Part shown: positions 1-19,391 of the stretch, piece after piece
Layout: the number at the start of each line of letters is the position of its first letter
How positions within the stretch are numbered: position 1 is the first letter of the stretch
Assembly: GCA_001780725.1 (NCBI GenBank)
Contig: MFIM01000005.1
Span: 2,127-66,126 of the forward strand
Length of the DNA stretch: 64,000 bases
From: Candidatus Giovannonibacteria bacterium RIFCSPLOWO2_02_FULL_45_28
GTDB taxonomy: Bacteria > Patescibacteriota > Minisyncoccia > UBA11713 > 2-01-FULL-45-33
Reading direction: 5' to 3'
Notes under the pieces: model-generated
The model's input: only the letters and a program-made list of their open reading frames with translations
What the model was told of the DNA's origin: nothing
Database searches by the model: none
Made by a program: the position numbers and the translations under genes

Positions 1-530
1 AGCTCTTTGGCGGCCGATTTTGTCAAACCGATTATCCCGGCTTTGCTCGCGCTATATGCCGCTTGACCGGCATTCCCGTGCGTGCCGACAACGGAGACAA
101 TATTAACTATTCGGCCTCCGGACGCCAGCATCAATTTAGCGGCTTCTTTCAGGCACAAGAATGTTCCTTTTAAATTAACGTTCAATATGTTATCCCAATC
201 TTTTTCGGCGGTGTTCACTATAAGACTGTCTTGCCTAATGCCAGCGTTATTTATGAGCACGTCAATCCGCCCAAACTGCTTTTTTATATCGCCGAACATC
301 TTTACAACATCTTTTGAATTGCTAATGTCAGCTCTTATTGCAACAACCTGCTTGTTTCGTTTTTTTAGCTCATCAATCACACGCCCCATTTCAGCTTCGC
401 GCTCGCGATAATTTAATATAACGGAGGCTCCGGCCGCAACAAAAGCGCGTGCGATTGCGCGCCCGATTCCCCTGCTGGCGCCGGTAACAAGCACTATTTT
501 GCCTTGTAGAATATTGCCGTCCGCGTTCAT
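1..530 (-). CDS. SDR-family oxidoreductase, FabG-like; start ATG at 530..528, 3' end runs past the window edge
   Basis: The minus strand translates to MNADGNILQGKIVLVTGASRGIGRAIA...NAGI...YSASKAG, showing the TGxxxGIG cofactor motif and the YxxxK catalytic motif. It is absent from the ORF track because it is truncated by the window edge. Its ATG overlaps the stop of the upstream gene (ATGA). Confidence 0.7.
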   Translation of the reverse strand, partial: MNADGNILQGKIVLVTGASRGIGRAIARAFVAAGASVILNYREREAEMGRVIDELKKRNKQVVAIRADISNSKDVVKMFGDIKKQFGRIDVLINNAGIRQDSLIVNTAEKDWDNILNVNLKGTFLCLKEAAKLMLASGGRIVNIVSVVGTHGNAGQAAYSASKAGIIGLTKSAAKE

Positions 531-1081
531 CATACATAATCGTTTTTATTAATAATTTCTGTGACTACCGCGTCCCGCCATCCGCCATTTCTGAAAACAT
601 AATCATTATATCTGCCAACCTCTTTGAATCCCAGTTTTTTATGAATATAGAGCACCGGGTTATCGCCGATGGTGCTGCCTCGCAGCGAATGCAATTTGAA
701 CACATCAAAAGCAAGTTTGATTATGGTTTGGAATAACACAAAACCGACACCGATATTTTTGCCGTGCGGATCAGCATAGGCGCCGAAGTAACAATGCCGA
801 TTTTTAAAATCAACGTCGTGCAGAGCGACAACGCCGATTGATTTTTTGTCCTTTTTGGCCAACCAACAAAAGTGCGTCTGATTTTTTGCAAGTTTTTTAA
901 TAAAATCGGAATGCTCTTCTTGGGTTAGAACGTGATTGGTAAACATCTGGTTTCTCACGTCCTTATGATTTCGCCAGGCAAGAACAAGGGCTTTTTCGCT
1001 ATCATTCAGATTTACAAAGTTAATAAGCGTTAGTCCTGCAATTTTCAAATTTTCCCGAAATTTTTTGTATTCGCGGATCAT
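530..1081 (-). CDS. pseH: GNAT N-acetyltransferase, PseH-like (UDP-4-amino-4,6-dideoxy-N-acetyl-beta-L-altrosamine N-acetyltransferase)
   Basis: 183 aa. The N-terminal stretch INFVNLNDSEKALVLAWRNHKDVRNQMF closely matches the PseH signature region ([21 protein letters not shown]... in Helicobacter PseH). GNAT fold, in a Pse gene context. Confidence 0.6.
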   Translation of the reverse strand: MIREYKKFRENLKIAGLTLINFVNLNDSEKALVLAWRNHKDVRNQMFTNHVLTQEEHSDFIKKLAKNQTHFCWLAKKDKKSIGVVALHDVDFKNRHCYFGAYADPHGKNIGVGFVLFQTIIKLAFDVFKLHSLRGSTIGDNPVLYIHKKLGFKEVGRYNDYVFRNGGWRDAVVTEIINKNDYV

Positions 1082-1968
1082 AATGTTTCTTTGGGGCGCA
1101 AAAATGCGACAATCTGCCTTCCCAGTCCCAGCTCGGCAAGCGCATGAAAATAATTAATTGCTTTTTCAACGGAAATAGCATGAATTAAATTATCTATTTC
1201 CAAGCGGGCCTTATGGCACGACGCGCCTTTGGATTTGTCTTTATAGTAATTGGTGTTTTCATTCAATAAATTAAAATCTACAGGATGTTCTGTGATAACA
1301 AAAGCGCTCTCCCAGCCAGCGGCGTTTGCAAGATTATTTAATCCGTCCTTGTTGAAGTAAGACAAATGGTCCGGCAAAACCACCCAAAACTCGTTTTCCA
1401 GATATTTTTTTTCAAGCAAGTATCGCTGCAATACAGAAAAGTCGTTTGGAACTTCAACCACCAAAACGCCGTCCGGATTTATAAGCTGTCGGCATTGTTT
1501 TAACAGCTTCAGCGGTTCGGTCACATGCTCCAGCACGTTGTCAAGACAAATCACGTCAAATTGCCGATTCAAATGAATGAATTTTTGGATTGAGTCCGCG
1601 AAATCGCCGACTACAATATTTTCCAAGCAATCCGGATTGTGGCGCCTGCAGCCGAAATCGCTAAAATCCAAGCCTGTTACTGTCCAACCAAGCCTTTTGA
1701 AATACTTCAGCGTCCAGCCCTCCCCGCATCCGACATCTAAAAAAGATTTGGCGGTGCTTGCAAGATATTTTTGAATAACGAAATGCTTTTCTTGGTTTTT
1801 ATTATCAAAATAGCGGATCTCGTCTGCGGAATACTCGTTTTGGTAAGCACCCATTGATTCTTGATAATATTTTTTTGAATAAAATTCGCCCAGCTCCGCT
1901 TGGCTCGGCTTCTTTTCAACCTCACAGTACCCGAATTTATTTTTAATAATTTTTAAATTTTTATTCAT
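1078..1968 (-). CDS. class I SAM-dependent methyltransferase
   Basis: 296 aa with motif I LDVGCGEGW and motif post-I VTGLDFS. The 4-nt overlap with pseH suggests translational coupling. Confidence 0.7.
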   Translation of the reverse strand: MNKNLKIIKNKFGYCEVEKKPSQAELGEFYSKKYYQESMGAYQNEYSADEIRYFDNKNQEKHFVIQKYLASTAKSFLDVGCGEGWTLKYFKRLGWTVTGLDFSDFGCRRHNPDCLENIVVGDFADSIQKFIHLNRQFDVICLDNVLEHVTEPLKLLKQCRQLINPDGVLVVEVPNDFSVLQRYLLEKKYLENEFWVVLPDHLSYFNKDGLNNLANAAGWESAFVITEHPVDFNLLNENTNYYKDKSKGASCHKARLEIDNLIHAISVEKAINYFHALAELGLGRQIVAFLRPKETL

Positions 1969-2007
1969 ACAACATAAAAATAAACCCGCCGGATGTCCAG
2001 CGAGTTA

Positions 2008-2640
2008 TCACGCTTGTGAATACTTATAAACGCCGGACTCAATTTCAGCCACCCCCTTTCCTTCAAGCTCAATGCGCCGTTTCAAATCCTCACTACTGTA
2101 AGCGTCCGCAATAATTTTTTCCCAACGATTCCTGTCGTACTCCAAAACTATTTCTTCCGCCGAACTCAACACAATGCGGTGTTCTTGTAATAATTGTCTC
2201 AAAACAAACAAATCTTCGACAGCTTCAATTATAGCCTTTGTTCTTGGCAGGTGCCACCCATTGGAAAGTATGGTAATCTTAACAAATTCTTTCTGCTGGA
2301 TTATTTTATTGAGTTCGTTCAATTGTTTGAAAGTGTTTCCTGAATTCGTCTCGGTTATAATATTCTCCTTAGCCACGCCCAAATCAACCAATTCGTTTCT
2401 TATAACTTCGGCCGCGGGTGGGACACCCGAAATATCCGCCAATTGCCCCTTGCCGCCCAAACAAATGATGGTTTGGCGCGGATCATTTTTATATAAATGA
2501 CTCGCTGCAACCACTCTTAGCCTGTCTCCAATTGTGCCAAATTTATCTCCCGCCTCGCCATAATTGGTGGTGCGCCATTTCCCGTTGCTGTCCTTTTTTA
2601 ATCCGCCGCCCAAAATTGCAATGATATTAATGGGTTTCAT
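2008..2640 (-). CDS. DUF218/YdcF (ElyC/SanA-family) protein
   Basis: 210 aa with IIAILGGG...ICLGGKG...SNGWHLPR, typical of the DUF218 fold. Confidence 0.5.
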   Translation of the reverse strand: MKPINIIAILGGGLKKDSNGKWRTTNYGEAGDKFGTIGDRLRVVAASHLYKNDPRQTIICLGGKGQLADISGVPPAAEVIRNELVDLGVAKENIITETNSGNTFKQLNELNKIIQQKEFVKITILSNGWHLPRTKAIIEAVEDLFVLRQLLQEHRIVLSSAEEIVLEYDRNRWEKIIADAYSSEDLKRRIELEGKGVAEIESGVYKYSQA

Positions 2641-3431
2641 TTTACTTGCGCTTCTTTTAAGAATTTTGCATCTTCTTTAAGCGATGTCAAATATCCCTCG
2701 TTTCTTTTGATGTGCTGGTTAATTGAAATTGATTTTGGATTTCTTTTTAAGAAACTCAAAATATCCCGTAAAGTAAAATATTTATTCTTTTTATATAATG
2801 CGCCGAATATTTTTCGCACCAAAATCAAATCATTCGGCTCATCAACCGTCAAACGAAGATGCGAATTGTCTTTTGTGCTGCGGACATTGCCTATGCGGAA
2901 AATTTCCGTGTGCTTGTAAATATATGCCGTGACATGCTCGCGCTCGGAGAGCAACGAGGCGTTCTTCCAGGCTCGCTCAAGCGCTTTAAAAGAAAAAACT
3001 TCTGTATCCATTCCGTCCGGAAAAGTCGGCGGATATGTATTGCTTACATAATCAAATTTATTTTTATTGCGTTTGTAAAAATTGATTACTTTATCTACAA
3101 TCGCCGGGTCTATGATTGGGCAATCGCTGGTAACCCTTACAATAGCATCGCCGTCTGCCAGCCGGCGGATTTTAGCCGCCTGATAAGTGCGGTCTAAAAC
3201 GTCTTCTTCGGAGCCGCGGAAAAAATCAACTCCGAGCTTTTTGGCGACCTTCACAATTTTTCCATCTCGCTGTTTGGTGGTAGTTGCAACGATAATTTTA
3301 TCCGCGGATTTAACTTTTTTGAGGCGCGAAATTAAATGCTCCAGCAGGGTTTTGCCAAAAATTTTTTTTAACACCTTGCCCGGAAGGCGCGTAGAGGCCA
3401 TGCGAGCTTGGACTATAATCGCAATCACCAT
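2637..3431 (-). CDS. SpsF/PseF-type cytidylyltransferase (CMP-nonulosonate synthetase candidate)
   Basis: 264 aa with the N-terminal IIVQARMASTRLPGKVL signature of COG1861 SpsF-type CTP-transferases (PF02348 family). Confidence 0.6.
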   Translation of the reverse strand: MVIAIIVQARMASTRLPGKVLKKIFGKTLLEHLISRLKKVKSADKIIVATTTKQRDGKIVKVAKKLGVDFFRGSEEDVLDRTYQAAKIRRLADGDAIVRVTSDCPIIDPAIVDKVINFYKRNKNKFDYVSNTYPPTFPDGMDTEVFSFKALERAWKNASLLSEREHVTAYIYKHTEIFRIGNVRSTKDNSHLRLTVDEPNDLILVRKIFGALYKKNKYFTLRDILSFLKRNPKSISINQHIKRNEGYLTSLKEDAKFLKEAQVK

Positions 3432-3475
3432 ATTGGAATATAACGCATTATCAAGTGCTTTGGTTTGTGTTGCGC

Positions 3476-3503
3476 TTGACGACTTTTATAGATTTGTTAT
3501 AAT
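3476..3503 (+). promoter_or_regulatory. sigma70-like promoter candidate (TTGACG-N16-TATAAT) upstream of the 3542 gene
   Basis: TTGACG at 3476..3481 and TATAAT at 3498..3503 with a 16-nt spacer, in a 110-bp divergent intergenic region. An AAGGGAAGGA RBS sits before ATG 3542. Confidence 0.35.
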
Positions 3504-3541
3504 ACTAACCAGAATTTAAAAAGGGAAGGATGGGTTGAAAG

Positions 3542-4597
3542 ATGCATTTTTTTCTGATAGCAAATGACTATGGAGAGTCTCTCTGTTTGGATAGCATTAG
3601 CTCGGAATTGAAACAGCGCGAGCACACGACTATTGAAGTTTTTGGGAGAGGAAAAAATCTCGCACTGACGGAAAAAATAGTTCAGCAAGCATTAGATGCG
3701 GACGTATTTATTACTGCTATCTCTGAATTCAACGAAGCGGAGGTGGCACTGGCAAAAAATGTGTGGAATCAAAAACCATGCATGCCGACTGTTGTCTACG
3801 CTCCGGGAAGATACGCTTTTCGCAATAAGGGCGCTACTTCTCTTCGCGGCATTACCGACCTTCTTCTTGTGGGAAATACGGACGAGGTTGAGGAAGCAAA
3901 AACGCTGTATCCGAGAGCGGCGCAGGTGGCGGCGGTTGGAAATGTTCTCCATGAAAATTTTTATCCGGAGCTTTCCATGGCAGAAGCGCGGAAGAAAATA
4001 GGAGTCGGAGACAATCAAAAGCTTATCTTCGTCCCGGGCGACAAACGGCTCGGCATTAACTGGCCGCTTTTCCATTCGGTAATTGAAGCCGCGCACCGCG
4101 CGTGTGTTCAGCGGCATTCGCCGATGGTCGCAATCGGCATTCATCCAGGCGATCAATATCCAATTGACATGTACCACGACGCTGAAAAGTATAGCCGCAA
4201 CGTTCCAGTTAAGATTTTCATGCGCGACATCCTGACTTCGGCAATACTGGTAACGGCTTGCGACTTAATGGTTACTGCAGTATCATCGCTAGCCACAATG
4301 GCAGCATTCCAAAGAAAGCCAATTATCGGCTTTTACTTTGAAAATCTTTTGGCCGACGCTGAAGACGCACAAGGCGGCAAGCCGCTTGAATGGGAACTTG
4401 AGAGCAACAAAGCCGCTGAAGTAGTGCGAGGAGGATCAGTGGACCTATTAGCTGAAACAATAAGCAGGCTTCTTTCGCCAAATGGTTTCAGAAAAATGCG
4501 AAGGCATCAAAAAATAGCTTACCCCGAAGCACCAATCCCAGGATCAACGGCAAAAAAAGCCGTTGACATCATTACTCGGCCAACCTTTAATGGTTAG
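3542..4597 (+). CDS. GT-B-fold protein, PseG/SpsG (GT28 C-terminal)-like; candidate UDP-sugar hydrolase or glycosyltransferase
   Basis: 351 aa. The C-terminal region ACDLMVTAVSSLATMAAFQRKPIIGFYFE resembles the GT28/MurG C-terminal nucleotide-sugar binding segment. Local GC is about 50-53% versus about 40% in the flanks. Confidence 0.35.
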   Translation: MHFFLIANDYGESLCLDSISSELKQREHTTIEVFGRGKNLALTEKIVQQALDADVFITAISEFNEAEVALAKNVWNQKPCMPTVVYAPGRYAFRNKGATSLRGITDLLLVGNTDEVEEAKTLYPRAAQVAAVGNVLHENFYPELSMAEARKKIGVGDNQKLIFVPGDKRLGINWPLFHSVIEAAHRACVQRHSPMVAIGIHPGDQYPIDMYHDAEKYSRNVPVKIFMRDILTSAILVTACDLMVTAVSSLATMAAFQRKPIIGFYFENLLADAEDAQGGKPLEWELESNKAAEVVRGGSVDLLAETISRLLSPNGFRKMRRHQKIAYPEAPIPGSTAKKAVDIITRPTFNG

Positions 4598-4604
4598 CCG
4601 TTTT

Positions 4605-5939
4605 TTATGTTAGCCTCTTAAATCCGCTGTGCGCTATCGGACCTTCAAGAAGGTTGCTGGTGGTTTTATTTTCTATTGACCGCTTTATTATTCCAAAAAC
4701 TTCGTCTACGGCTTTGAGATATGACTTAACATGATTTTCTTTGTGGGCGTAAGAAACATAAACGCTCAAGGCCGCGAGATATCCACGCTTCAGCATCTCC
4801 TGAATGAATAGGGTTTTGAGCGCCTGATTAATTTTGCCTCCGCCAGCCGGCGGATTGAATGAAAAGGTAATAAGCGGATTCGGCCCGACAACAGTAATAT
4901 CTAAACCGTGCTTTTCGGCCACAGCTTTCCACCCCTTCCCAATCCTCTCCCCGATTTTTCCCAGATGTTCCGGCACATGTTTTTTCTGCATCTTTTTAAT
5001 AGTAGCCAGCGCCGCCACAGGACCAACCGCTTCCGTCCAATAAGTGCTGGAGATAAAAGTTTTTTGCGCGGCGTCCATAACTCCCTTTCTGCCAATTACA
5101 GCCGCCATCGGATAGCCATTGCTCATAGCTTTGGCGAAAACAGCGATATCCGGGTTCACTCCGTATAAAAGATGTGCGCCTCCGACATTAAGCCGCCAAC
5201 CTATTGAAATTTCATCAAAAATCAAAACAGCGCCGATTTTTTTTGCTATTTGGGCAACTTTTTTTATAAAATCATTTTTAGGCTCCGTGTGCCGAAGCGT
5301 TTCCATTACAATTACTCCGATATCTTTGTTTGCGGCAGCAATCTTTTCAAGCGCGGCTATATCATTGTAATGGAACGGGAAAGCGGTGCCTTTTAACCCG
5401 CGCGGGACTCCGGCTGGATCAAGCCCGGGCAATAAATGGCCGTCTAAATTTTTCTTGTCGGCCAAGTTCGCTGCCAAATACCAGTCATGCCAGCCATGAT
5501 ATCCGCAGAATGCAATCTTGTCGCGGCCGGTGTATGCACGGGCAATTCTTACGGCAATTGACATCGCCTCCCCGCCGGTCCGCGCGAATCTCGCCATATT
5601 CGCCCAAGGATGGAGCTTGCAAAGAATTTCCGCAAGCTCCACTTCCTCCGGAGAATTTAGCGTGGACATTGAACCTAAATCCGCCGCCATTTTAACGGCG
5701 CGATTTACGTCCGGATCGGCATATCCCAAAACACAACTCCCGACGCCCATCAATGAAAAATCCTCATATTTATTTCCATCCAAATCCCAAACTTCTATAC
5801 CTTTGGCTTTCTTATAATAAGAAGGCCATCCACCAGGCAAAAACATTTCTGACCTTTTGGACAAGAGCTGGCTCCCGCCGGGAATTATTTTTTTAGCCCG
5901 CCTCCACAAAGCCGGCCCTTTTTTTATTAAAAGGTTCAT
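4605..5939 (-). CDS. class III (PLP) aminotransferase, glutamate-1-semialdehyde aminomutase-like
   Basis: 444 aa aligning along its length to the HemL/GSA-AT fold (…GVGSCVLGYADPDVNRAV…IFDEISIGWR…). Confidence 0.7.
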   Translation of the reverse strand: MNLLIKKGPALWRRAKKIIPGGSQLLSKRSEMFLPGGWPSYYKKAKGIEVWDLDGNKYEDFSLMGVGSCVLGYADPDVNRAVKMAADLGSMSTLNSPEEVELAEILCKLHPWANMARFARTGGEAMSIAVRIARAYTGRDKIAFCGYHGWHDWYLAANLADKKNLDGHLLPGLDPAGVPRGLKGTAFPFHYNDIAALEKIAAANKDIGVIVMETLRHTEPKNDFIKKVAQIAKKIGAVLIFDEISIGWRLNVGGAHLLYGVNPDIAVFAKAMSNGYPMAAVIGRKGVMDAAQKTFISSTYWTEAVGPVAALATIKKMQKKHVPEHLGKIGERIGKGWKAVAEKHGLDITVVGPNPLITFSFNPPAGGGKINQALKTLFIQEMLKRGYLAALSVYVSYAHKENHVKSYLKAVDEVFGIIKRSIENKTTSNLLEGPIAHSGFKRLT

Positions 5940-6895
5940 ATTTTCTTTGCACGAATTAAAACTTTTAAAACATTCTTAGCCGCCCTTAAGCCTTGGAGTG
6001 GTTCAGAGTTGTTTTTAATACAATTTAAAAAATGTTTTATTTCCTCAACAAACATTTTATTTAAATTTTTGTCTCCGCGATAAAGCTCTTTTTTTATTTT
6101 TCTGTCTTCAAAAATAAGGGTGTCCTCCCCGATATCCAGCGTCAGAGTGCCTTTTTCGGTCACAACCTCAATTCGATGCGTTGTTTTTTTGCAGATATAA
6201 TCCGAAGCAATGCCGGAGATAACACCATTTTTGTGTTCCAACATCAACACGGCCATCTCTTCGCTTTTGAATCCTAAAGGATGCTTATCACTCAAAAGCA
6301 ACGCCGCTTTTTTAATATCTCCGAAAAGAGCCGAAAGGTAATAAATTGAGTGGGTTACATGGTCTAAAATTACGCCTCCTCCCTCGGTTTTTTTCGCGAT
6401 ATAGCTTTTTTTATAATTTATATTTTTTCTGGCCCAAGGGATATAAAATCCCTGCGCCACACGGCAAAGCATCGCTTTGCCATAAACCATGCTTTTTAAA
6501 ACACTTTGAAGTTTTTTAAATCCTTCATAAAAAAGAAAATTGCAAGCAGGCATCACAACTTTTTTGCCGCGCGCTACTTTTTTGATTAAAGCGTCAACGC
6601 CGGCTAAATTGTTTGAAAGAGGCTTTTCAATAAAAACATGCGCGCCGTAGTTTAAAGCCAAACTTGCCGTCGGCACATGCAAATGCGTCGGATTGCAAAT
6701 AAAAACAATATTCGGCCGTTCTTTTTCTATGGCGGTTTTGGCGTTTTTGTATAAAGAAAAATTGCCAAGCAATGCAGCTACTTTTAATTTTTTCTCATCG
6801 GGATCAGAGACGACTAAATTTTTGTAACCTAACTTAAGTAAGTTTTTTAAATGCCTCGTCCCAATTGATCCCGCGCCAATAATCAAAATTTTCAT
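5936..6895 (-). CDS. Gfo/Idh/MocA-family NAD(P) oxidoreductase
   Basis: 319 aa with MKILIIGAGSIGTRH N-terminal Rossmann and EKPL motif. Confidence 0.7.
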   Translation of the reverse strand: MKILIIGAGSIGTRHLKNLLKLGYKNLVVSDPDEKKLKVAALLGNFSLYKNAKTAIEKERPNIVFICNPTHLHVPTASLALNYGAHVFIEKPLSNNLAGVDALIKKVARGKKVVMPACNFLFYEGFKKLQSVLKSMVYGKAMLCRVAQGFYIPWARKNINYKKSYIAKKTEGGGVILDHVTHSIYYLSALFGDIKKAALLLSDKHPLGFKSEEMAVLMLEHKNGVISGIASDYICKKTTHRIEVVTEKGTLTLDIGEDTLIFEDRKIKKELYRGDKNLNKMFVEEIKHFLNCIKNNSEPLQGLRAAKNVLKVLIRAKKI

Positions 6896-8034
6896 GTGGA
6901 TTTTAAAATCTTTATTAAAGTTTTAATCACGAAATTTTGTTCTGTGTTTTTGAGGCTTGGGAAAATCGGCAAAGATATTTCTGCTTCGTAAAATGCTTCG
7001 GCTTTGGGGCATAGGCCTTTTTTGTAGCCGAGTTTTTGATAATAAGGATGAAGATACACCGGAATATAATGAATTTGCGCTCCGATTCCGGCGTTGCGGA
7101 GTTTTTTTACAATTTCCGCGCGTTTATTCGCCGACTTTCCCGCGAAACGCAACGGATACAGATGCCAGCTAGAGCTCACGCCTACGTGCTCTTCCGGCAA
7201 AAGCAGATTTTTATTTTGCCTAATCGCTTCGCCGTAGCGCGAAGCGATTTTTTTCCGCGCGCTTATAAATTTATCCAGCTTTTTTAGTTGGGAAATCCCT
7301 AAAGCGGCATGGATATCCGTGAGCCTGTAATTAAAACCTAGCATCTGCATCCCCCGGCTCCCGATGCCGTGGTGTCTGAACTGTTTTAATTTTTCGTAAT
7401 AAATTTTACTGTTGGTCGCAACCGCCCCTCCCTCGCCGGTAGTAATTGATTTTACCGGATGAAAACTGAAAGTAGTCATATCGGCAATGCTGCCGATTTT
7501 TTTGCCTTTGTATTTGGCGCCCAAAGAATGCGCGGCGTCTTCTATTAAAACCAGTTTACGTTTGCGGGCTAGGCTTTTAAATTTATCTAAATTCGCCGGA
7601 TGCCCAGCGTAATCTACCACCGCCAATAATTTGGTTTTTCGTGTTATTTTTTTTTCCGCCTCCACCGGGTCAAGATTTCCATACTCATCAATATCGGCGA
7701 AAACAGGCCTTGCCCCAAGATACAAACCCGCGTTTGAGGTGGCCGCGAAAGTTAAAGGCGTTGTAATAAACTCGTCGCCGCGCCTCATTCCTGCAACAAA
7801 ATATGCGGCGTGCAATGCCGCAGTGCCGCTGGAAAAAGCTGCGGCGAATTTTGCGCCGCAATAGTGCGCAAGCGCTCTTTCAAATTCCCCAATTTTCGGT
7901 CCTTGCGTCAGCCAGTCTGATTTTAAAACGCTTTTTACCGCCTCAATATCGGCGTTATCAATTGATTGATGCCCGTAAGGAATCGTTGCTTTAGCAACGA
8001 TCCCGCCGCGGCGGGATGAAAACGTGGTTTTCAT
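6892..8034 (-). CDS. pseC: DegT/DnrJ/EryC1 aminotransferase, PseC-like
   Basis: 380 aa with the FSFHPVKSITTGEGGAVATN PLP-lysine region. Immediately downstream of pseB with an overlap-free junction. Confidence 0.65.
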   Translation of the reverse strand: MKTTFSSRRGGIVAKATIPYGHQSIDNADIEAVKSVLKSDWLTQGPKIGEFERALAHYCGAKFAAAFSSGTAALHAAYFVAGMRRGDEFITTPLTFAATSNAGLYLGARPVFADIDEYGNLDPVEAEKKITRKTKLLAVVDYAGHPANLDKFKSLARKRKLVLIEDAAHSLGAKYKGKKIGSIADMTTFSFHPVKSITTGEGGAVATNSKIYYEKLKQFRHHGIGSRGMQMLGFNYRLTDIHAALGISQLKKLDKFISARKKIASRYGEAIRQNKNLLLPEEHVGVSSSWHLYPLRFAGKSANKRAEIVKKLRNAGIGAQIHYIPVYLHPYYQKLGYKKGLCPKAEAFYEAEISLPIFPSLKNTEQNFVIKTLIKILKST

Positions 8035-8035
8035 T

Positions 8036-9016
8036 TTATGAAATTATGCTTAGAAAATCTTCTTTGTTTAAAATATCCACTTTATTGCTGGCGTATTGAA
8101 AACTCTTCGGAATGTATCCTGAAGATTGGGGGTGCGCCGCTTTCCACCAATCTTGCGCCGGCTCAACCAAGTAGTATTTTCCAATGTCCTTTGTCCTTCT
8201 GACTTCGTCTTCAGTCAGCAAAACCTCGTGCAGCTTTTCTCCGGGCCTTATGCCGATAATTTTGATCTGGCAGTTAGGCGCCGCCGCCGAAATCAAATCT
8301 TTCACTTTCATGGCTTTTAGTTTCGGCACAAAAATCTCGCCCCCCTGCATCGCGCCGAGGGCATTCAGCACCAGTCCCACTCCTTCGTCTAAAGTAATCC
8401 AAAATCGCGTCATGTCCTCGTGAGTTAGGGTTACTACTCCCTTATTTTTTTGCGAACTCAAAGTTTCCACAATACTGCCCCTGCTACCTACGACATTGCC
8501 GTATCTCACGGCGCTAAAAAACGGGGGCGAGGAACTCTCCCGCCTGTAAGAGTTTGCGGCAATTAGCAGTTTTTCCGCGCAAAGTTTGGTAGCCCCGTAC
8601 AAATTAATCGGATTGACGGCTTTGTCCGAAGAAATCAGCAAAACTTTCCCGACGTTGGAATCAAGTGCGGCATCAATCACATTCTGCGTTCCCAAAACAT
8701 TGGTTTTTACGGCTTCCAGTGGGTTATATTCCAGCGCCGGAACTTGTTTTAAGGCCGCGGCATGGACAACAATATCCACTCCGCGAAACGCCCTTTCCAA
8801 TCTTTGGAGGTCTCTTACGTCTCCCAAAAGAAACCTTAATTTGTCGTGATCGCCGAGCTTTAAGCGCATTTCGTGCTGTTTAAATTCATCGCGGCTAAAA
8901 ACAATAATTTTTCTGCACAAATCCAATCCCAAAAGTTTTTCCACGAATCTTTGCCCAAAAGACCCGGTGCCTCCGGTAACCAAAACAGCCTTATCTTTGA
9001 GAAACCCGTAGTCCAT
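8036..9016 (-). CDS. pseB: UDP-N-acetylglucosamine 4,6-dehydratase (inverting), PseB/FlaA1-like
   Basis: 326 aa with VLVTGGTGSFGQ...ISSDKAVNPINLYGATK (YxxxK) and CapD-like short architecture. Confidence 0.7.
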   Translation of the reverse strand: MDYGFLKDKAVLVTGGTGSFGQRFVEKLLGLDLCRKIIVFSRDEFKQHEMRLKLGDHDKLRFLLGDVRDLQRLERAFRGVDIVVHAAALKQVPALEYNPLEAVKTNVLGTQNVIDAALDSNVGKVLLISSDKAVNPINLYGATKLCAEKLLIAANSYRRESSSPPFFSAVRYGNVVGSRGSIVETLSSQKNKGVVTLTHEDMTRFWITLDEGVGLVLNALGAMQGGEIFVPKLKAMKVKDLISAAAPNCQIKIIGIRPGEKLHEVLLTEDEVRRTKDIGKYYLVEPAQDWWKAAHPQSSGYIPKSFQYASNKVDILNKEDFLSIIS

Positions 9017-9055: not shown

Positions 9056-10186
9056 TTAAGCATTCTCCGGTATTTTAAATAAAGGGCTTTCCGCCAAAAA
9101 CTTTTTTGAATTTTCTTGTATCTGTTTTTCCATATATTCTCGGTCAAAATAGCCTACCCATTTTATTTTTGGCAGCAGCATCCCGCCGTAGCGTTCTTTG
9201 AAAATACCTATAGAAATTTCTTTAGCGGTTGGGATATAAAACGGCTGCGGGCCATAAAACCTCTCTCCTATTTCATAAAATTTAAAGCCGTTTTTTTTAT
9301 AAAAAAGCATGGCTTCCCACTCCAAAAGATGGCGCGGAGAATATTCTTTTTCGTATTTTTCAACGTTGGCTTGCGACCAACCGAAGGCCATGAGAAAAAA
9401 CTCACCGCAATACAAATAACTTATCGGCGTATCACGAAGAAATGCGATAAAAAGCGAAGCGTGACCAGCACGGATTCCGTCCAGCATGGCATCCCATGTT
9501 GCTTGCGGGCGAGTCTGGCGGCCAGCCGCCGCGAGATGCGCCCCCTGAAATTGCCGGAACTGTTCCGGCGTCTCCGCAAAATTATTTTTGGAATTAAATA
9601 CCCTGATTGCGATGCCCCTTTTCGCTCCCCTTTTTATGTGGCGGTAATGGTATTTCCCCAAATTATCTGCTAGCGCTTCTTCTGATAAAGAAAGGTCGGT
9701 TACCAAAGTGTTCTCCACATAGTAATGCAGGCCATAACGCAGCAAGCCAAACGAATTTTCGTTCGCCAAGCGGCCAGCTCCGGACATTGCCAAACTGTTT
9801 AACGGATGCCAGCCGAAGCTTATCTGCCGCGCATTATGCACATTTCCGTAAGATTGATAAATATCCAAAATCTTATCCAACGTATCACGATATGTGCCAG
9901 CCGAAATGTCGCATAAAGCAGGCGCTCCGCAGGGAGAATGCCCGAAAGAGATCGCGGCAATATTTTCTTTATCAAAAAAACTTAAAGCCATTGGACAAAC
10001 AGCAACCGGTTCTTTATTTTTATCCAACAAAACAAACGATGCATTTTCCCTAACCTCTGGAAATTGGCTAATATAATTTATCCAGTGCCAAGTATGGTAA
10101 TAGCTCGCCGACCCACCCACTTTTTGGACCCAGCCGTCCCAAACGGCGGGATCAACATCTTTATAATAAATAATTTTTGGCTCCAT
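9056..10186 (-). CDS. FemAB / BioF2-like (Acetyltransf_6) GNAT-fold transferase
   Basis: 376 aa with LGKYHYRHIKRGAKRGIAIRVF (R..I.KA.K.G motif of FemAB/BioF2-like) and C-terminal GNAT-like region. Confidence 0.5.
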   Translation of the reverse strand: MEPKIIYYKDVDPAVWDGWVQKVGGSASYYHTWHWINYISQFPEVRENASFVLLDKNKEPVAVCPMALSFFDKENIAAISFGHSPCGAPALCDISAGTYRDTLDKILDIYQSYGNVHNARQISFGWHPLNSLAMSGAGRLANENSFGLLRYGLHYYVENTLVTDLSLSEEALADNLGKYHYRHIKRGAKRGIAIRVFNSKNNFAETPEQFRQFQGAHLAAAGRQTRPQATWDAMLDGIRAGHASLFIAFLRDTPISYLYCGEFFLMAFGWSQANVEKYEKEYSPRHLLEWEAMLFYKKNGFKFYEIGERFYGPQPFYIPTAKEISIGIFKERYGGMLLPKIKWVGYFDREYMEKQIQENSKKFLAESPLFKIPENA

Positions 10187-10187
10187 A

Positions 10188-11648
10188 TTATCCAGCGTTT
10201 AATTTCTTTAATTCGGCCTCAATAGCCCCGGCGATATTCTCCGAGTTTTGCCGCACGCTTATTTTGGAAAGAGAAGTCCGCTGTATGTAAGGATGAAAAT
10301 ACGCTTGAAGACTTACCCTGTCCAGGCACGTCAAAAAATTAATGATTTTTTCTTGGGATACTTTAAATCCGTTTTTAATTTTTTCCAGCGCCTCCCGGCA
10401 AGATGCCGCGTCTTTAATTTTAAATACGCCTTCCGAATGCTGGTACCATGGGTAGCCAAAAATCAAAGCCGGCTTTCCGCGTAAAATCGCCTCCCAGCCA
10501 ACCGTACCGGCCCCTGTAGCCACCGCTTGCGAATGGCGGATTAATTGGAAAGAATCCGTTTCTATCGGCACAAGTCTTACATTCTTTAATTTGGCGATCT
10601 CCCTGTAATATCCTTTATATCTGCAATCATAATAATTAAGCCCACGCCGCAGCCAGACAATACGGTGCTCTTTTACATAAACCAACCAGCCTTCCGGAAG
10701 AACGGAAGCTAAAGTTTCAACCATCAAAATCTGGTCGGAAAAAACTCCGGCCTGCGGGCAAGTCTGCGCCTCCGGCTGGTATTGCAAAGTAACGTAAACA
10801 TATTTTTTACCGAAATCCGGCGCTGATTGGACGGAAAGGTGCTCTTTTTTAAGGTTGGGCCCGAACTGCCTTGGCAAGTAAGTAAGCGCTTTCCACAATA
10901 CGGAAATCTCCTTAAGCACGGTGAGCGTCGTCCACAAAGAACGGAGCTTTATTAAAAACTGGCTCAAACCTCTATATCTCACGAGATCCTCTTTTAGATA
11001 AAGCGGACTTTTGTCTCCGCCGTTTTCAGTTTGGCTTTTATAATGCGCTCTTGTGTCCGGATTTAAATCCGCCAAAGAAAATCGGCTGTACGCGTTTTCT
11101 TTGATTTGTTTTATCAGATCCGCCGAACCAGCCTTATAATCGTTCATCACTATCACCCAGCCGTTAGCGATCAAAATGTCTTCAAATATTATTATTTTAA
11201 TTCCTAGTTTCCTTGCCAGATCGTATATGACAAAATCGTACACCGTGTGCGGTATAGACGAATAAATAATCGCGTCCGGCTTTAATTTTTTAATCACGCC
11301 GTACCAATACTGGAGAAAATGATGATAAAAATGCTTACGCTGTTCAATCGGGCTCCATTCAAACTTTTTGTGCATCATAGTCAGAATTACAGATTCCGTT
11401 TCATAAAATTGTTTTAAAAGATCTTCGCCAGGCGGCAAAAAATCTAATGTATCTATGCCGTCAGCCGGCTTGCCCGCAAGCGCATCAAAAACATTATGGA
11501 AAACAGTTTTCGGAAATTTAGACTTATCAATACTTTCATCGCGAAAATAAGTCCAATAGACTATTTCGTGCGAGTTTTCTTTTAGTTTGAGGGCGGCATC
11601 TATCAAACCGAGCTCTTTCCCGTCCCAGCTTATTAAAAATAATTTCAT
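10188..11648 (-). CDS. Capsule_synth (KpsC/KpsS-like, PF05159) family protein; candidate ulosonic-acid transferase
   Basis: 486 aa with YVTLQYQPE ... VYVKEHR ... GYPWY patterns shared with the second copy at 23808..25313. Confidence 0.45.
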   Translation of the reverse strand: MKLFLISWDGKELGLIDAALKLKENSHEIVYWTYFRDESIDKSKFPKTVFHNVFDALAGKPADGIDTLDFLPPGEDLLKQFYETESVILTMMHKKFEWSPIEQRKHFYHHFLQYWYGVIKKLKPDAIIYSSIPHTVYDFVIYDLARKLGIKIIIFEDILIANGWVIVMNDYKAGSADLIKQIKENAYSRFSLADLNPDTRAHYKSQTENGGDKSPLYLKEDLVRYRGLSQFLIKLRSLWTTLTVLKEISVLWKALTYLPRQFGPNLKKEHLSVQSAPDFGKKYVYVTLQYQPEAQTCPQAGVFSDQILMVETLASVLPEGWLVYVKEHRIVWLRRGLNYYDCRYKGYYREIAKLKNVRLVPIETDSFQLIRHSQAVATGAGTVGWEAILRGKPALIFGYPWYQHSEGVFKIKDAASCREALEKIKNGFKVSQEKIINFLTCLDRVSLQAYFHPYIQRTSLSKISVRQNSENIAGAIEAELKKLNAG

Positions 11649-11652
11649 CCCG

Positions 11653-13434: not shown

Positions 13435-14360
13435 GATTCTGGGATATGACCGCTTGCTATTGTGCGCGCGATGCCTTCGTCTAAAGTTATTTTTGGTTCG
13501 TAGCCAAGTATCCGTCTGGCCTTTGAGATGTCCGGAATCCTGTTTATGATTTCACGCGCGTTTTTGCGGTCCGCGTGCTCTTCTTTTACAAATTCTACTC
13601 CGAGATTATTTTTACCTGCCGAAGCCGTAACCTTATTTGCCAAATCCAGCATGCTGGTAGCCGCTCGGTCATTGCCGATATTAAACACGTGTCCATTTGC
13701 TTCTTTGCTGGTCAAAGCTAAATACACGCCCTCCACAGCATCGTCAACATAGCAAAACGATCTCACCTGTTTTCCGTCTCCGTTGATTATAGGCGGCGTT
13801 CCAATCATCGCAGCGCGGATAAATTTGGGAAGCACAAATTCCGCAACCTGTCCCGGCCCGTAAACATTAAAAAATCGGACAATGGAATAATCCAGCCCGT
13901 GCGTCTGATGATAAGCTTTTACGTATTCTTCTCCGGCCAATTTGGAAACTGCATATACTGATTTAGGAAAAGTTTTATCGTCTTCACTTATGGGAGTTTT
14001 CGCGGGTTCGCCATAAACCTCGGAGGATGAGGAAAGAACTATTTTTTTAATTCCCGCCTTAACCGCGGCGTCCAAAACATTGATTGTCCCAAGCGTGTTT
14101 ACGTTGAGGCATTTTAACCGCTGGTTTTCCGTGCGCGCGACGCCCAACACCGCTGCCAAATGCACAACGTAATCGCAGCCTTTCATTGCCTTATAAAGCT
14201 CGTCTGGAAACATTATTGTGCCAACAATGTGCTCTCCAACCGTTTTCGGCGGCTGAAAAAGGTCAAAAGTTTTTACTTCCAAACCCTTGGACGCAAAATA
14301 CTTGGCCATAGTGTGCCCAATAAATCCAGCGCCTCCGGTAATTAAAACTTTTTTGCTCAT
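13416..14360 (-). CDS. NAD-dependent sugar epimerase/dehydratase (extended SDR)
   Basis: 314 aa with VLITGGAGFIGHT...YAVSK (YxxxK). Confidence 0.75.
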   Translation of the reverse strand: MSKKVLITGGAGFIGHTMAKYFASKGLEVKTFDLFQPPKTVGEHIVGTIMFPDELYKAMKGCDYVVHLAAVLGVARTENQRLKCLNVNTLGTINVLDAAVKAGIKKIVLSSSSEVYGEPAKTPISEDDKTFPKSVYAVSKLAGEEYVKAYHQTHGLDYSIVRFFNVYGPGQVAEFVLPKFIRAAMIGTPPIINGDGKQVRSFCYVDDAVEGVYLALTSKEANGHVFNIGNDRAATSMLDLANKVTASAGKNNLGVEFVKEEHADRKNAREIINRIPDISKARRILGYEPKITLDEGIARTIASGHIPESWTEQA

Positions 14361-15508: not shown

Positions 15509-15542
15509 TTGTATATAAATAACTAATCCAAACGCCGTAGTG

Positions 15543-18795: not shown

Positions 18796-19391
18796 TTTGT
18801 CGCCTCTACGCACCATAATTTTGTAATAGCTCGCCGGTTGTCCATCGTCCTTTTTGAATAATCAACTTTTAAGTCCCTGAACGGCAAAAAGAGTTGTTTT
18901 ATTTCCGCAAGTTTAAAAAAGTGTTCCATCAAGATCCAATGCATATTTTTTTCTTCCGCTATCATCGTACCGAAAAATTTTCCTCCCGGTTTTAACACCC
19001 GATAAACCTCGCCCATTATTTTTTTGATATTTTGATACGAGTTACTCTGAATGCTCGCTATATCCGTAACAGAGTCAAAATAATTATCGGGCCAGTCCAA
19101 TTTAACAATATCGCCAATTTTAAAATCGGCTTTAAGTTTTTCTGCCTTAAATCTTCGCCGCGCGATTTTAATCGCAGTTTTGGATCCGTCAATTCCGACA
19201 ACTGAAAATCCTTCGCGGGCCATATACCAAGTTGCGGCACCAGTGCCACAACCCAAGTCCAAAATTTTAATTTTGCTTCGGTCCGGCGCCGCGTAATAAT
19301 TTCGCGCCACAAAACGCACCAGCACCTCTGGCGGATATTTGCCCCACTCTTTGGAGCTGAAAACTTTTTCCCAAGTTTTATCCCAACTCAT
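18792..19391 (-). CDS. class I SAM-dependent methyltransferase
   Basis: 199 aa with motif I ILDLGCGTGAATWYMA and post-I VVGIDGS. Confidence 0.65.
   Translation of the reverse strand: MSWDKTWEKVFSSKEWGKYPPEVLVRFVARNYYAAPDRSKIKILDLGCGTGAATWYMAREGFSVVGIDGSKTAIKIARRRFKAEKLKADFKIGDIVKLDWPDNYFDSVTDIASIQSNSYQNIKKIMGEVYRVLKPGGKFFGTMIAEEKNMHWILMEHFFKLAEIKQLFLPFRDLKVDYSKRTMDNRRAITKLWCVEATK

What the first reader, a model, noticed from the sequence alone, without database searches (positions are those of the whole stretch)
530..9016. Pse/Sps-type block (PseB, PseC, PseH, SpsG-like, SpsF-type CTP-transferase) with no synthase of its own in view
PseB (inverting 4,6-dehydratase motifs), PseC (DegT) and a GNAT whose N-terminus closely matches PseH are present. 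An SpsF-type cytidylyltransferase (MASTRLPGKVL) and a divergently transcribed GT-B protein resembling SpsG/PseG also belong to this set. The window contains only one NeuB-family synthase, located 9 kb away in the second NulO operon. So either the two routes converge on one synthase while keeping two distinct CMP-transferases (SpsF-type and NeuA-type), or the Pse synthase lies beyond position 1. Extra genes interleaved here (class III aminotransferase, Gfo/Idh/MocA oxidoreductase, SAM methyltransferase) suggest a modified Pse derivative.
Basis: partly seen in the sequence, partly recalled or inferred. Interest (0 to 1): 0.55.

Follow-up and report, generated by a model that had tools for sequence, protein, structure and literature searches.

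The report
Pseudaminic-acid operon cut by window edge
The "missing" synthase of this pseudaminic-acid sugar operon lies 7.6 kb beyond the window's left edge, so the pathway is complete. It still carries two uncharacterised features: an orphan GT-B protein where PseG is expected, and a widespread oxidoreductase/aminotransferase/cytidylyltransferase module.

Summary
The genes are real. PseB, PseC and PseH pass NCBI's equivalog cut-offs. The cytidylyltransferase (CT) is a PF02348 enzyme carrying the quoted motif. The window holds only one NeuB-family gene.

"No synthase of its own" is a window-edge artefact. A 118-kb assembly is 100% identical to window 1-11081. On it the same-strand operon continues through an acyl-carrier module to a PseI that scores 477 bits against a 340-bit cut-off, about 7.6 kb past position 1. 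Consecutive GenBank accession numbers in two assemblies, plus a contig-end fragment in a third, confirm this order. The organism, a Candidatus Giovannonibacteria (Patescibacteria), has two separate nonulosonic-acid (NulO) pathways, each with its own synthase and CT.

ORF 3542-4597 has a GT-B fold but is not a PseG/SpsG family member. It belongs to an orphan family found inside Patescibacterial Pse-type clusters that all lack PseG. Its role is unresolved: PseG substitute or CMP-sugar transferase.

The Gfo/Idh/MocA oxidoreductase, class III aminotransferase and CT form a module conserved across domains. The aminotransferase and CT are sometimes fused. I infer a hydroxyl-to-amine change on the nine-carbon sugar.

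The parts
1..533 (-). First ~177 codons of a FabG-like SDR gene that runs off the left edge of the window. The operon continues outside the window: TylF-like methyltransferase, class I/II aminotransferase, D-2-hydroxyacid dehydrogenase, ACP, AMP-ligase, glyoxalase-like protein, AcpS, B12-radical SAM, then PseI at L001:18715-19773 (window about -7633 to -8691).
   Evidence: L001 is 100% identical to window 1-11081. FabG TIGR01830 293 bits and PseI TIGR03586 476.8 bits against 340.25. Gene table. Consecutive accession numbers.
530..1081 (-). PseH, the N-acetyltransferase for UDP-4-amino-4,6-dideoxy-N-acetyl-beta-L-altrosamine
   Evidence: TIGR03585 131 bits against a cut-off of 93.1, residues 20-170. 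GNAT Pfam domains.
1078..1968 (-). Class I SAM-dependent methyltransferase (tailoring; substrate unknown)
   Evidence: PF13489 89.8 bits. It does not match the Pse-associated methylase model.
2008..2640 (-). DUF218 protein, conserved beside the CT or PseI in related clusters; role unknown
   Evidence: PF02698 56 bits. Homologs sit next to CT/PseI in L006, L008, L011, L012, L014 and L017.
2637..3431 (-). SpsF-type cytidylyltransferase; the probable CMP-NulO synthetase of this pathway (functional PseF)
   Evidence: PF02348 119 bits. PseF model only 28 bits. PDB 6OEW 155 bits. It is the only CT in the related Pse-type clusters L006, L009, L011-L014 and L017. Homologs are fused to the class III aminotransferase in L019 and L021. 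A homolog sits in the B. thuringiensis Pse operon.
3476..3503 (+). Best sigma-70-like promoter match in 1-10300, 39 nt upstream of the GT-B start codon
   Evidence: TTGACG-16 nt-TATAAT with an upstream TG, 11 of 12 matches. This is a consensus match only.
3542..4597 (+). Orphan GT-B-fold protein on the opposite strand. It is either the UDP-sugar hydrolase that replaces PseG or a CMP-NulO transferase.
   Evidence: AlphaFold2 pLDDT 90.2. Foldseek GT-B hits with TM 0.55-0.69. Family of 460 clusters. Found inside Pse-type clusters in 8 of 9 homolog loci, none with PseG. hhalign: TagF-like 90%, Capsule_synth 74%, NeuC 65%, PseG 23%.
4605..5939 (-). Class III (omega-type) aminotransferase, part of the conserved module
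   Evidence: PF00202 131 bits. PDB relatives include GSA aminomutases and the aminoglycoside C-6' aminotransferase 7LLD. At least 8000 homologs at E<=1e-60, the listed top 120 at 65-75% identity, with CT fusions P0264 and P0274.
5936..6895 (-). Gfo/Idh/MocA NAD(P)-dependent sugar oxidoreductase, part of the conserved module
   Evidence: PF01408 and PF22725. Weak matches to inositol 2-dehydrogenase and archaeal UDP-GlcNAc 3-dehydrogenase models. Adjacent to the aminotransferase in L006, L009, L011-L014, L020, L021 and L022.
6892..8034 (-). PseC aminotransferase
   Evidence: TIGR03588 444.4 bits against 423.5.
8036..9016 (-). PseB inverting UDP-GlcNAc 4,6-dehydratase
   Evidence: TIGR03589 414.4 bits against 407.75.
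9056..10186 (-). FemAB-family acyl/aminoacyl transferase directly upstream of PseB; probably part of the same unit
   Evidence: PF13480 28 bits and TIGR04421 65 bits. A FemAB-like gene precedes PseB in L006 and L011, and lies just before the Gfo/Idh/MocA gene in L021.
10188..13434 (-). Capsule_synth (KpsS/KpsC-like) protein and an MsbA/PglK-like ABC exporter; candidate NulO transferase and export step
   Evidence: PF05159. ABC models. The same gene pair sits upstream of PseB in L009 and L013; the Capsule_synth gene alone is also present in L011, L012 and L017.
13416..20088 (-). The separate second NulO pathway (Leg/Neu type): SDR dehydratase, DegT, FemAB, NeuC, NeuB (17713-18816), methyltransferase, NeuA-type CT (19378-20088)
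   Evidence: NeuC TIGR03568 416 bits against 236. NeuB TIGR03569 416 bits against 399.65; the PseI model gives only 291 bits against 340. CT PF02348. NeuB is 34.7% identical to PseI.

Best explanation
Window 530-9016 is the upstream two-thirds of one long, complete operon for a tailored pseudaminic-acid-type nonulosonic acid (NulO) in a Candidatus Giovannonibacteria (Patescibacteria) genome.

Shown:
- PseB, PseC and PseH are present.
- The operon continues past window position 1 through an acyl-carrier tailoring module (FabG, TylF-like methyltransferase, aminotransferase, 2-hydroxyacid dehydrogenase, ACP, AMP-ligase, glyoxalase-like protein, AcpS, B12-radical SAM).
- It then reaches its own PseI synthase, about 7.6 kb outside the window.
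- The window's only NeuB belongs to a separate Leg/Neu-type pathway with its own NeuC and NeuA-type cytidylyltransferase (CT).

Inferred:
- The SpsF-type CT is this pathway's CMP-NulO synthetase.
- The Gfo/Idh/MocA oxidoreductase and class III aminotransferase act at the level of the nine-carbon sugar. They oxidise a hydroxyl, most plausibly C8-OH, giving a methyl ketone, and transaminate it to an amine.
- The extra FemAB, GNAT and ACP machinery then acylates that amine.
- UDP release is done by the orphan GT-B protein (3542-4597) rather than a canonical PseG. This is the least certain step.
For: Extension of the window:
- Five independent assemblies are 100% identical to window 1-11081.
- L001 has no N runs, and its extension matches the NCBI contig 100% over 2124 bp.
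- PseI scores 476.8 bits on TIGR03586 against a 340.25 cut-off.
- Consecutive GenBank accession numbers run from PseI to the oxidoreductase in two independent assemblies: KKT60378-60395 and KKU30236-30253. In a third, KKT29385 is an 84-aa contig-end "sialic acid synthase" fragment in PseI's 90% cluster, followed by KKT29386-29401.

CT as the CMP-NulO synthetase:
- It is the only CT in 8 related loci (L006, L009-L014, L017).
- An SpsF-type CT lies in the B. thuringiensis Pse operon.
- spsF is needed for transfer of Leg but not for its synthesis in B. subtilis (PMC7439481).

The oxidoreductase/aminotransferase/CT module:
- The three genes co-occur in Patescibacteria, an alphaproteobacterial plasmid and a haloarchaeal plasmid.
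- CT-aminotransferase fusions occur in L019, P0264 and P0274.
- Precedent: EpaA (a CT fused to an aldo-keto reductase) plus the SDR EpaB change C8 of Pse (PMC12053666).
- An 8-amino manno-NulO exists in Flexibacter maritimus (PMC3210612).

GT-B as the PseG substitute:
- It is present wherever PseG is absent (8 Patescibacterial loci) and absent where PseG is present (L019, L020).
Against: - Beyond 2.8 kb past the window edge, only one fetched contig (L001) carries the sequence. The accession numbering and 14 similar contigs that were not shown back it up.
- The GT-B family shows no specific affinity to PseG. In hhalign it is closest to TagF-like and Capsule_synth proteins, which use CDP/CMP donors. 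That would favour a transferase role.
- Locus L021 has a Pse-type cluster with neither the GT-B protein nor PseG within 10 kb either side.
- One GT-B family member (L018) sits outside any NulO cluster.
- The aminotransferase is 69% identical between a Pse-type cluster (L021) and a Leg-type cluster (L022). That is unexpected for an enzyme reading sugar stereochemistry.
- No biochemical data exist for the module.
Confidence: 0.85

Rival explanations
1. One reading: the Pse-type and Leg-type routes converge on the single NeuB at 17713-18816, which condenses both hexoses with PEP, while two CMP-transferases are kept.
For: Inside the window there is only one NeuB-family gene.
Against: A dedicated PseI, above the equivalog cut-off, lies in the same operon 7.6 kb beyond position 1. 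The window NeuB scores below the PseI cut-off (291 against 340). Related clusters carry their own PseI next to the CT or DUF218 gene.
Confidence: 0.03
2. The orphan GT-B protein is a glycosyltransferase that uses the CMP-activated NulO, or another CDP/CMP donor. UDP removal is done by another protein, such as DUF218 or an unlinked gene.
For: - hhalign is closest to a TagF-like protein (90%) and Capsule_synth (74%), both cytidine-nucleotide-donor GT-B families. PseG reaches only 23%.
- Pfam weak hits include Capsule_synth and Glyphos_transf.
- The gene has its own strong promoter-like site and the opposite orientation.
- L021 manages without it.
- DUF218 is conserved beside CT/PseI.
Against: - Most of these clusters (all but L006, L008 and L014) already carry a Capsule_synth protein as a transferase candidate.
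- No other UDP-sugar hydrolase candidate is evident.
- GT-B and PseG show complementary distributions.
- The most frequent weak Pfam hit is Epimerase_2, a family that includes UDP-sugar hydrolysing enzymes (9 of 45 members).
Confidence: 0.4
3. The oxidoreductase and class III aminotransferase do not modify the nine-carbon sugar. They act earlier on the UDP-hexose (for example at C3), or they make an amine-bearing side chain or an unrelated CMP/CDP-activated small molecule.
For: - The oxidoreductase weakly matches UDP-GlcNAc 3-dehydrogenase and inositol dehydrogenase models.
- The aminotransferase is 69% identical in Pse-type and Leg-type clusters.
- L006 and L008 add an APH-type kinase, a HAD phosphatase and, in L008, a second CT.
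Against: - Three independent fusions of the aminotransferase to the CT tie it to the CT's substrate or product.
- A C3 amine on the hexose would replace the oxygen that closes the NulO ring.
- The EpaA/EpaB precedent pairs a CT with C8 redox chemistry.
Confidence: 0.3
4. The product is not Pse but a stereoisomer, for example the C5 epimer (acinetaminic-acid configuration). This would happen if the GT-B protein is a NeuC-like hydrolysing 2-epimerase acting on the PseB/PseC/PseH product.
For: - Weak Epimerase_2 affinity: 9 of 45 family members and hhalign 65% to NeuC.
- Many 2-epimerases appear among the Foldseek hits.
- UniRef names the protein as containing a UDP-GlcNAc 2-epimerase domain.
- C1 and C2 of the PseB product keep the UDP-GlcNAc configuration (established chemistry), so anti-elimination is feasible.
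Against: The synthase is a clear PseI-clade enzyme. The acidic catalytic residues of 2-epimerases are not demonstrably conserved. Affinity to Epimerase_2 is no better than to other GT-B families.
Confidence: 0.08

Closest known systems
Canonical CMP-pseudaminic acid pathway PseB-PseC-PseH-PseG-PseI-PseF (Campylobacter jejuni / Helicobacter pylori)
   Same: PseB, PseC, PseH and PseI are all present and pass the equivalog cut-offs. The logic is the same: UDP-GlcNAc to a 6-deoxy-diamino hexose, PEP condensation, then CMP activation.
   Different: There is no PseG-family gene. The CT is SpsF-type, not PseF (28 bits against 205.7). About 12 extra tailoring genes are interleaved. PseI is separated from PseH by about 8 kb.
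Bacillus thuringiensis Pse operon (Pen/Pal pathway; Li et al. 2015 J Biol Chem, recalled from memory) as seen on plasmid pHS18-1
   Same: An SpsF-type PF02348 CT lies inside the Pse operon (29% identity over 91% of the query, L016:5533-6240). PseC, PseH and PseI homologs are present.
   Different: B. thuringiensis has a canonical PseG and splits the PseB step into two enzymes. It has no oxidoreductase/class III aminotransferase pair.
EpaA/EpaB of Acinetobacter baumannii prophages (Pse to 8-epi-Pse; PMC12053666)
   Same: A PF02348 CT is coupled, there by fusion, to redox enzymes that remodel a finished NulO at C8. Here a CT is coupled, by fusion in L019, P0264 and P0274, to an aminotransferase and sits next to an oxidoreductase.
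   Different: EpaA carries an aldo-keto reductase domain and EpaB is an SDR, and the outcome is epimerisation. Here the partners are Gfo/Idh/MocA plus a PLP enzyme, so the predicted outcome is amination. No sequence comparison to EpaA could be made.
Bacillus subtilis sps legionaminic-acid pathway (SpsC, D, E, F, G, M; PMC7439481)
   Same: An SpsF-type CT acts as the activating enzyme of a 5,7-diamino NulO.
   Different: That pathway makes Leg, not Pse. SpsG is PseG-like, whereas the protein here is not.
Legionella pneumophila serogroup 6/12 O-antigen cluster (PMC3694923)
   Same: A class III aminotransferase sits next to an "acylneuraminate cytidylyltransferase", with an oxidoreductase, DegT, CapD and GNAT in the same cluster.
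   Different: That cluster has an annotated PseG and an aldo-keto-type reductase. The function of the module there is equally unknown.
8-amino-3,5,7,8,9-pentadeoxy-manno-nonulosonic acid of Flexibacter (Tenacibaculum) maritimus O-antigen (PMC3210612)
   Same: It is a chemically proven Pse-like NulO with a third amino group at C8. This is the product class predicted here.
   Different: No gene link has been established. I could not inspect that genome with these tools.

Membership tests
CMP-pseudaminic acid pathway | PseB inverting UDP-GlcNAc 4,6-dehydratase | tested here: met
   TIGR03589 414.4 bits against a 407.75 cut-off
CMP-pseudaminic acid pathway | PseC C4 aminotransferase | tested here: met
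   TIGR03588 444.4 bits against 423.5
CMP-pseudaminic acid pathway | PseH N-acetyltransferase | tested here: met
   TIGR03585 131 bits against 93.1
CMP-pseudaminic acid pathway | PseG UDP-sugar hydrolase (GT28-like) | tested here: not met
   No NCBIfam hit at E<=10 for ORF 3542-4597. tblastn with two PseG proteins finds nothing in the window. An HMM built from four PseG sequences finds nothing in the window, L001 or the 8 related Patescibacterial loci.
CMP-pseudaminic acid pathway | PseI synthase | tested here: met
   TIGR03586 476.8 bits against 340.25 at L001:18715-19773, which lies outside the window but in the same operon
CMP-pseudaminic acid pathway | PseF cytidylyltransferase | tested here: not met
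   The CT at 2637-3431 scores 28.4 bits on TIGR03584 against 205.7. It is a PF02348 enzyme of the SpsF type and is inferred to do the same job.
PseG/SpsG family (claim for ORF 3542-4597) | Sequence or profile similarity to PseG | tested here: not met
   hhalign probabilities of 4%, 1% and 23%. No family member hits Glyco_tran_28. PseG is not among the top 50 Foldseek hits.
GT-B fold superfamily (claim for ORF 3542-4597) | Two Rossmann-like domains; structural match to GT-B enzymes | tested here: met
   pLDDT 90.2. Foldseek E about 1e-10 to MGD1, MshA, BshA, UDP-GlcNAc 2-epimerases and MurG, with TM up to 0.69.
UDP-GlcNAc 2-epimerase family (PF02350) | Pfam gathering-level match | tested here: not met
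   The window protein has no hit. Nine of 45 family members hit weakly (best E 5e-6). hhalign to NeuC gives 18-65%.
SpsF-type cytidylyltransferase | PF02348 domain with the N-terminal RLPGK motif | tested here: met
   PF02348 119 bits. MASTRLPGKVL at residues 11-21. PDB 6OEW 155 bits.
SpsF-type cytidylyltransferase | Direct similarity to B. subtilis SpsF; CMP-NulO synthetase activity | not testable with these tools
Indirect support: the homolog in the B. thuringiensis Pse operon.
Leg/Neu-type NulO pathway (second operon) | NeuB/LegI synthase plus NeuC hydrolysing 2-epimerase plus NeuA-type CT | tested here: met
   TIGR03569 416 bits against 399.65. TIGR03568 416 bits against 235.9. PF02348 CT.

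The most novel reading that the evidence does not exclude
The conserved module of an oxidoreductase (Gfo/Idh/MocA or aldo-keto reductase), a class III aminotransferase and a PF02348 cytidylyltransferase (the latter two sometimes fused) is the unassigned route to triamino nonulosonic acids. It would convert the C8 hydroxyl of a Pse- or Leg-type sugar to an amine. It is found in Patescibacteria, Proteobacteria and haloarchaea. In Patescibacteria the Pse pathway has also replaced PseG with an unrelated orphan GT-B enzyme.
Probability: 0.25. Interest if true: 0.65.

Novelty: new variant of a known kind. Interest (0 to 1): 0.4.

Why it matters
The puzzle as posed, a Pse pathway without a synthase, disappears. 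That is a useful negative result and a caution about calling absences at window edges.

What remains is of moderate interest to glycobiologists.

- An ultra-small Patescibacterial genome devotes more than 70 kb to surface-glycan synthesis, including two separate nonulosonic-acid pathways.
- Its Pse-type pathway lacks the canonical PseG.
- It carries a very widespread but uncharacterised oxidoreductase/aminotransferase/cytidylyltransferase module (at least 8000 homologs of the aminotransferase). Gene fusions tie this module to the nine-carbon sugar.

Assigning that module would annotate thousands of genes. It might also explain how triamino nonulosonic acids are made. In the held literature, only one, unrelated, paper mentions pseudaminic acid and Patescibacteria together.

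Tried and rejected
- Sequence searches of ORF 3542-4597 against Pfam, NCBIfam and PDB sequences gave no usable hit.
- The search for related loci with the broad 45-sequence alignment failed because it had no conserved stretch. The narrower alignment gave only 4 genome loci.
- Single-sequence hhalign against PseG and NeuC was too weak to decide. Small-profile hhalign showed non-specific GT-B affinity.
- Cluster look-ups of distant GT-B members returned no names.
- A literature search for the triamino sugar using short terms was swamped by unrelated chemistry papers.
- The Tenacibaculum maritimum O-antigen paper does not list a class III aminotransferase or a NulO synthase, so the gene-to-structure link could not be tested.
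- Li et al. 2015 (PMC4294493) is not held. A search for it by gene names failed.
- Searching phage genomes for an EpaA-like CT found only distant KdsB-type hits.
- The idea that the block uses the window's NeuB was rejected on the PseI evidence.
- The idea that L001 is a scaffold artefact was rejected. It has no Ns, it agrees with the NCBI contig, and the GenBank accession order supports it.

Full report
**1. What is in the sequence**

The ORF map of window 1-24000 shows a nearly unbroken chain of minus-strand genes.

| Coordinates | Call | Evidence |
|---|---|---|
| 8036-9016(-) | PseB | TIGR03589 414.4 bits, cut-off 407.75 |
| 6892-8034(-) | PseC | TIGR03588 444.4 bits, cut-off 423.5 |
| 5936-6895(-) | Gfo/Idh/MocA oxidoreductase | PF01408, PF22725 |
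| 4605-5939(-) | Class III aminotransferase | PF00202 131 bits |
| 2637-3431(-) | Cytidylyltransferase (CT) | PF02348 119 bits; PseF model only 28 bits against 205.7 |
| 1078-1968(-) | SAM methyltransferase | PF13489 |
| 530-1081(-) | PseH | TIGR03585 131 bits, cut-off 93.1 |

The CT carries MASTRLPGKVL at residues 11-21. ORF 3542-4597(+) matches nothing in Pfam, NCBIfam or PDB sequences.

The second pathway lies at 13416-20088. It holds an SDR dehydratase, DegT, a FemAB-family protein, NeuC (TIGR03568 416 bits), NeuB (TIGR03569 416 bits against 399.65; PseI model 291 against 340), a methyltransferase and a NeuA-type CT. tblastn confirms one NeuB-family gene and no PseG anywhere in the 64 kb.

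**2. The missing synthase is a window-edge artefact**

A minus-strand SDR gene runs off the left edge of the window. An exact-protein look-up of PseH returned five assemblies, each 100% identical to window 1-11081. One of them, L001, is a 118-kb scaffold that extends 9.5 kb further.

On the same strand, with overlaps or gaps of about 100 nt or less, L001 encodes:
- FabG
- a TylF-like methyltransferase
- a class I/II aminotransferase
- a glyoxylate-reductase-like D-2-hydroxyacid dehydrogenase
- an ACP
- an AMP-ligase
- a glyoxalase-fold protein
- AcpS
- a B12-binding radical SAM enzyme
- a 352-aa NeuB+SAF protein

The last protein scores 476.8 bits on the PseI equivalog model against a 340.25 cut-off. 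In window coordinates PseI lies at about -7633 to -8691.

L001 has no N runs. Its extension is 100% identical to the NCBI contig over the 2.1 kb that contig still covers. The other assemblies differ by 0.2-1.6% and break there, which points to strain microdiversity.

Independent confirmation comes from GenBank numbering. In two assemblies the accessions run consecutively from PseI to the oxidoreductase: KKT60378 to 60395 and KKU30236 to 30253. In a third, KKT29385 is an 84-aa contig-end "sialic acid synthase" fragment in PseI's 90% cluster, and KKT29386 to 29401 follow it. NCBI itself names the protein pseudaminic acid synthase.

In the assembly the window probably comes from (GCA_001778935.1), PseI's neighbours carry locus tags of a different series (A3G55_0388x against A3G55_0038x). 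PseI is therefore likely on another contig there.

The two pathways each have their own synthase and their own CT.

**3. The GT-B protein**

Only 12 close homologs exist, all from Patescibacteria. A profile search finds 460 clusters at the 50% identity level, all about 350 aa and all metagenomic. An AlphaFold2 model built from the alignment is confident, with pLDDT 90.2.

Foldseek gives GT-B enzymes: MGD1, MshA/BshA, many UDP-GlcNAc 2-epimerases and MurG, at E about 1e-10 and TM up to 0.69. PseG is not in the top 50.

| Test | Result |
|---|---|
| Pfam scan of 45 members at E<=1 | Epimerase_2 in 9, Capsule_synth in 6, Glyphos_transf in 3, Glyco_tran_28 in none |
| hhalign with small reference profiles | TagF-like 90%, Capsule_synth 74%, NeuC 65%, PseG 23% |

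The protein is therefore an orphan GT-B. "PseG-like" holds only at fold level.

Context is more informative. In 8 of 9 homolog loci the gene sits, always on the opposite strand, inside a PseB-PseC-...-CT-(DUF218)-PseI cluster. None of those loci has a PseG by BLAST or by a four-sequence PseG HMM. Clusters outside Patescibacteria that share the rest of the gene set do have PseG and lack this protein; these are the Pseudosulfitobacter plasmid L019 and the Halorussus plasmid L020.

This complementary distribution is the argument for a PseG substitute. Three observations argue against it:
- the hhalign preference for GT-B families that use cytidine-nucleotide donors;
- locus L021, which has neither protein within 10 kb either side;
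- locus L018, where a family member stands alone outside any NulO cluster.

I put the hydrolase reading at about 0.45 and the transferase reading at about 0.40. The best sigma-70-like promoter match in the first 10.3 kb lies 39 nt upstream of the gene's start codon.

**4. The SpsF-type CT**

Its best solved relative is 6OEW, an unnamed cytidylyltransferase, at 155 bits. It is the only CT in 8 related Pse-type loci (L006, L009-L014, L017). A homolog lies between pseC and pseG in the B. thuringiensis Pse operon (29% identity, 91% coverage).

In B. subtilis, spsF is dispensable for making Leg but required for transferring it (PMC7439481). The simplest reading is that this CT is the pathway's CMP-NulO synthetase. 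Two CT types in one window then simply reflect two pathways.

**5. The oxidoreductase/aminotransferase pair**

The aminotransferase family is very large and conserved. At least 8000 proteins match at E<=1e-60, and the listed top 120 are 65-75% identical. It is 54% identical to a haloarchaeal homolog and 51% to an alphaproteobacterial one.

It is almost always adjacent to a Gfo/Idh/MocA or aldo-keto reductase, a CT and a NeuB-family synthase. The L. pneumophila serogroup 6 cluster shows a similar arrangement (PMC3694923).

The aminotransferase is fused to the CT in three independent cases: WP_089422657 in L019, P0264 and P0274. Fusion argues that it handles the CT's substrate or product, that is, the nine-carbon sugar.

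A 5,7-diamino-3,9-dideoxy NulO offers only the C4 and C8 hydroxyls. Three points favour C8:
- Oxidation at C8 gives a methyl ketone, the classic substrate of class III omega-transaminases (general knowledge). PDB relatives include the aminoglycoside C-6' aminotransferase.
- EpaA (CT fused to an aldo-keto reductase) with the SDR EpaB performs C8 redox chemistry on Pse (PMC12053666).
- An 8-amino manno-configured NulO is known from Flexibacter maritimus (PMC3210612).

This step is inference. One observation cuts against it: the module also occurs in a Leg-type cluster (L022), with 69% identity in the aminotransferase.

**6. Overall model**

UDP-GlcNAc is converted by PseB and PseC. The product is N-acylated by PseH and possibly by the FemAB-family protein at 9056-10186. 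UDP is released by the GT-B protein or an unknown enzyme. The free hexose is condensed with PEP by PseI and activated by the SpsF-type CT.

Tailoring comes from the oxidoreductase/aminotransferase pair, two methyltransferases, the B12-radical SAM enzyme and an ACP-borne acyl group. The Capsule_synth protein (10188-11648) and the ABC exporter (11653-13434) are the likely transfer and export steps. The same gene pair precedes PseB in L009 and L013; the Capsule_synth gene alone is also present in L011, L012 and L017.

**7. Novelty**

The question as posed has an ordinary answer. The locus itself is a new variant of a known kind. It is a Pse-type pathway without PseG, it carries an uncharacterised but widespread tailoring module, and it sits in a Patescibacterium. 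In the held literature, only one, unrelated, paper mentions pseudaminic acid and Patescibacteria together.

Noticed in passing
window 20081-23809 (-): A sulfation set lies directly downstream of the Leg-type operon: a sulfotransferase (PF00685), an APS kinase, and a 733-aa fusion of a pyruvate-kinase barrel, a PUA_2 domain and ATP-sulfurylase. It suggests a sulfated glycan. The pyruvate-kinase fusion is unusual.
   Followed up: no
window 9056-10186 and 15543-16607 (-): Two FemAB-family (PF13480) proteins occur, one in front of each NulO pathway, where an N-acetyltransferase would be expected. FemAB-like genes also accompany the Pse genes in L006, L011 and L021. Aminoacyl-tRNA-dependent N-acylation of the sugars is possible.
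   Followed up: partly
window 10188-11648 (-), 23610-25313 (+), 11653-13434 (-): There are two Capsule_synth (KpsS/KpsC-like, PF05159) proteins and an MsbA/PglK-like ABC exporter. These are candidate CMP-NulO transferases and an export step, one transferase per pathway.
   Followed up: partly
window 14357-15799 (-): The mechanical ORF start (TTG) of the second DegT overlaps the FemAB gene by 257 nt, and the DegT domain begins at residue ~105. The true start is probably near 15.48 kb.
   Followed up: no
L001:11082-13890 (just left of window position 1): Four of five assemblies break 1.7-2.8 kb beyond the window edge. Three of them differ from L001 there by 0.2-1.6%, and one has a 16-nt indel. 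The cause is probably strain microdiversity. It likely explains why the source contig ends there and why PseI's neighbours carry a different locus-tag series in GCA_001778935.1.
   Followed up: yes
L009:7926-9155, L011:7397-8614, L013:7920-9152: Related Giovannonibacteria and Paceibacteria clusters carry a divergent NeuB paralog of 405-409 aa, 34% identical to PseI, directly after the SpsF-type CT. L011 has both this paralog and a normal PseI. Its function is unknown.
   Followed up: no
window 2008-2640 (-) and homologs in L006, L008, L011, L012, L014, L017: A DUF218 protein is conserved beside the CT or PseI in most Patescibacterial Pse-type clusters. It is an alternative candidate for the missing UDP-sugar hydrolase.
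   Followed up: partly
window 29337-48568: The rest of the window is further glycan-tailoring machinery: a carbamoyltransferase (46164-47813), a sugar C-methyltransferase (41389-42630), RmlD-like and 4,6-dehydratase genes, two GT2 enzymes, another DegT and at least six methyltransferases. Three ORFs of 584, 333 and 595 aa at 33635-38174 have no Pfam match. This is a very large investment for an ultra-small genome.
   Followed up: no
window 2006-1983 (-): A terminator-like hairpin (10 pairs, followed by a T-run) lies in the 39-nt gap between the DUF218 gene and the methyltransferase gene. It may split the operon or attenuate it.
   Followed up: no
L008:5070-7800: One related cluster has citrate-lyase/succinyl-CoA-ligase-like genes (Citrate_synt, Ligase_CoA, ATP-grasp_2) inserted between DUF218 and PseI, and two adjacent CTs. 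This hints at a different acyl decoration.
   Followed up: no
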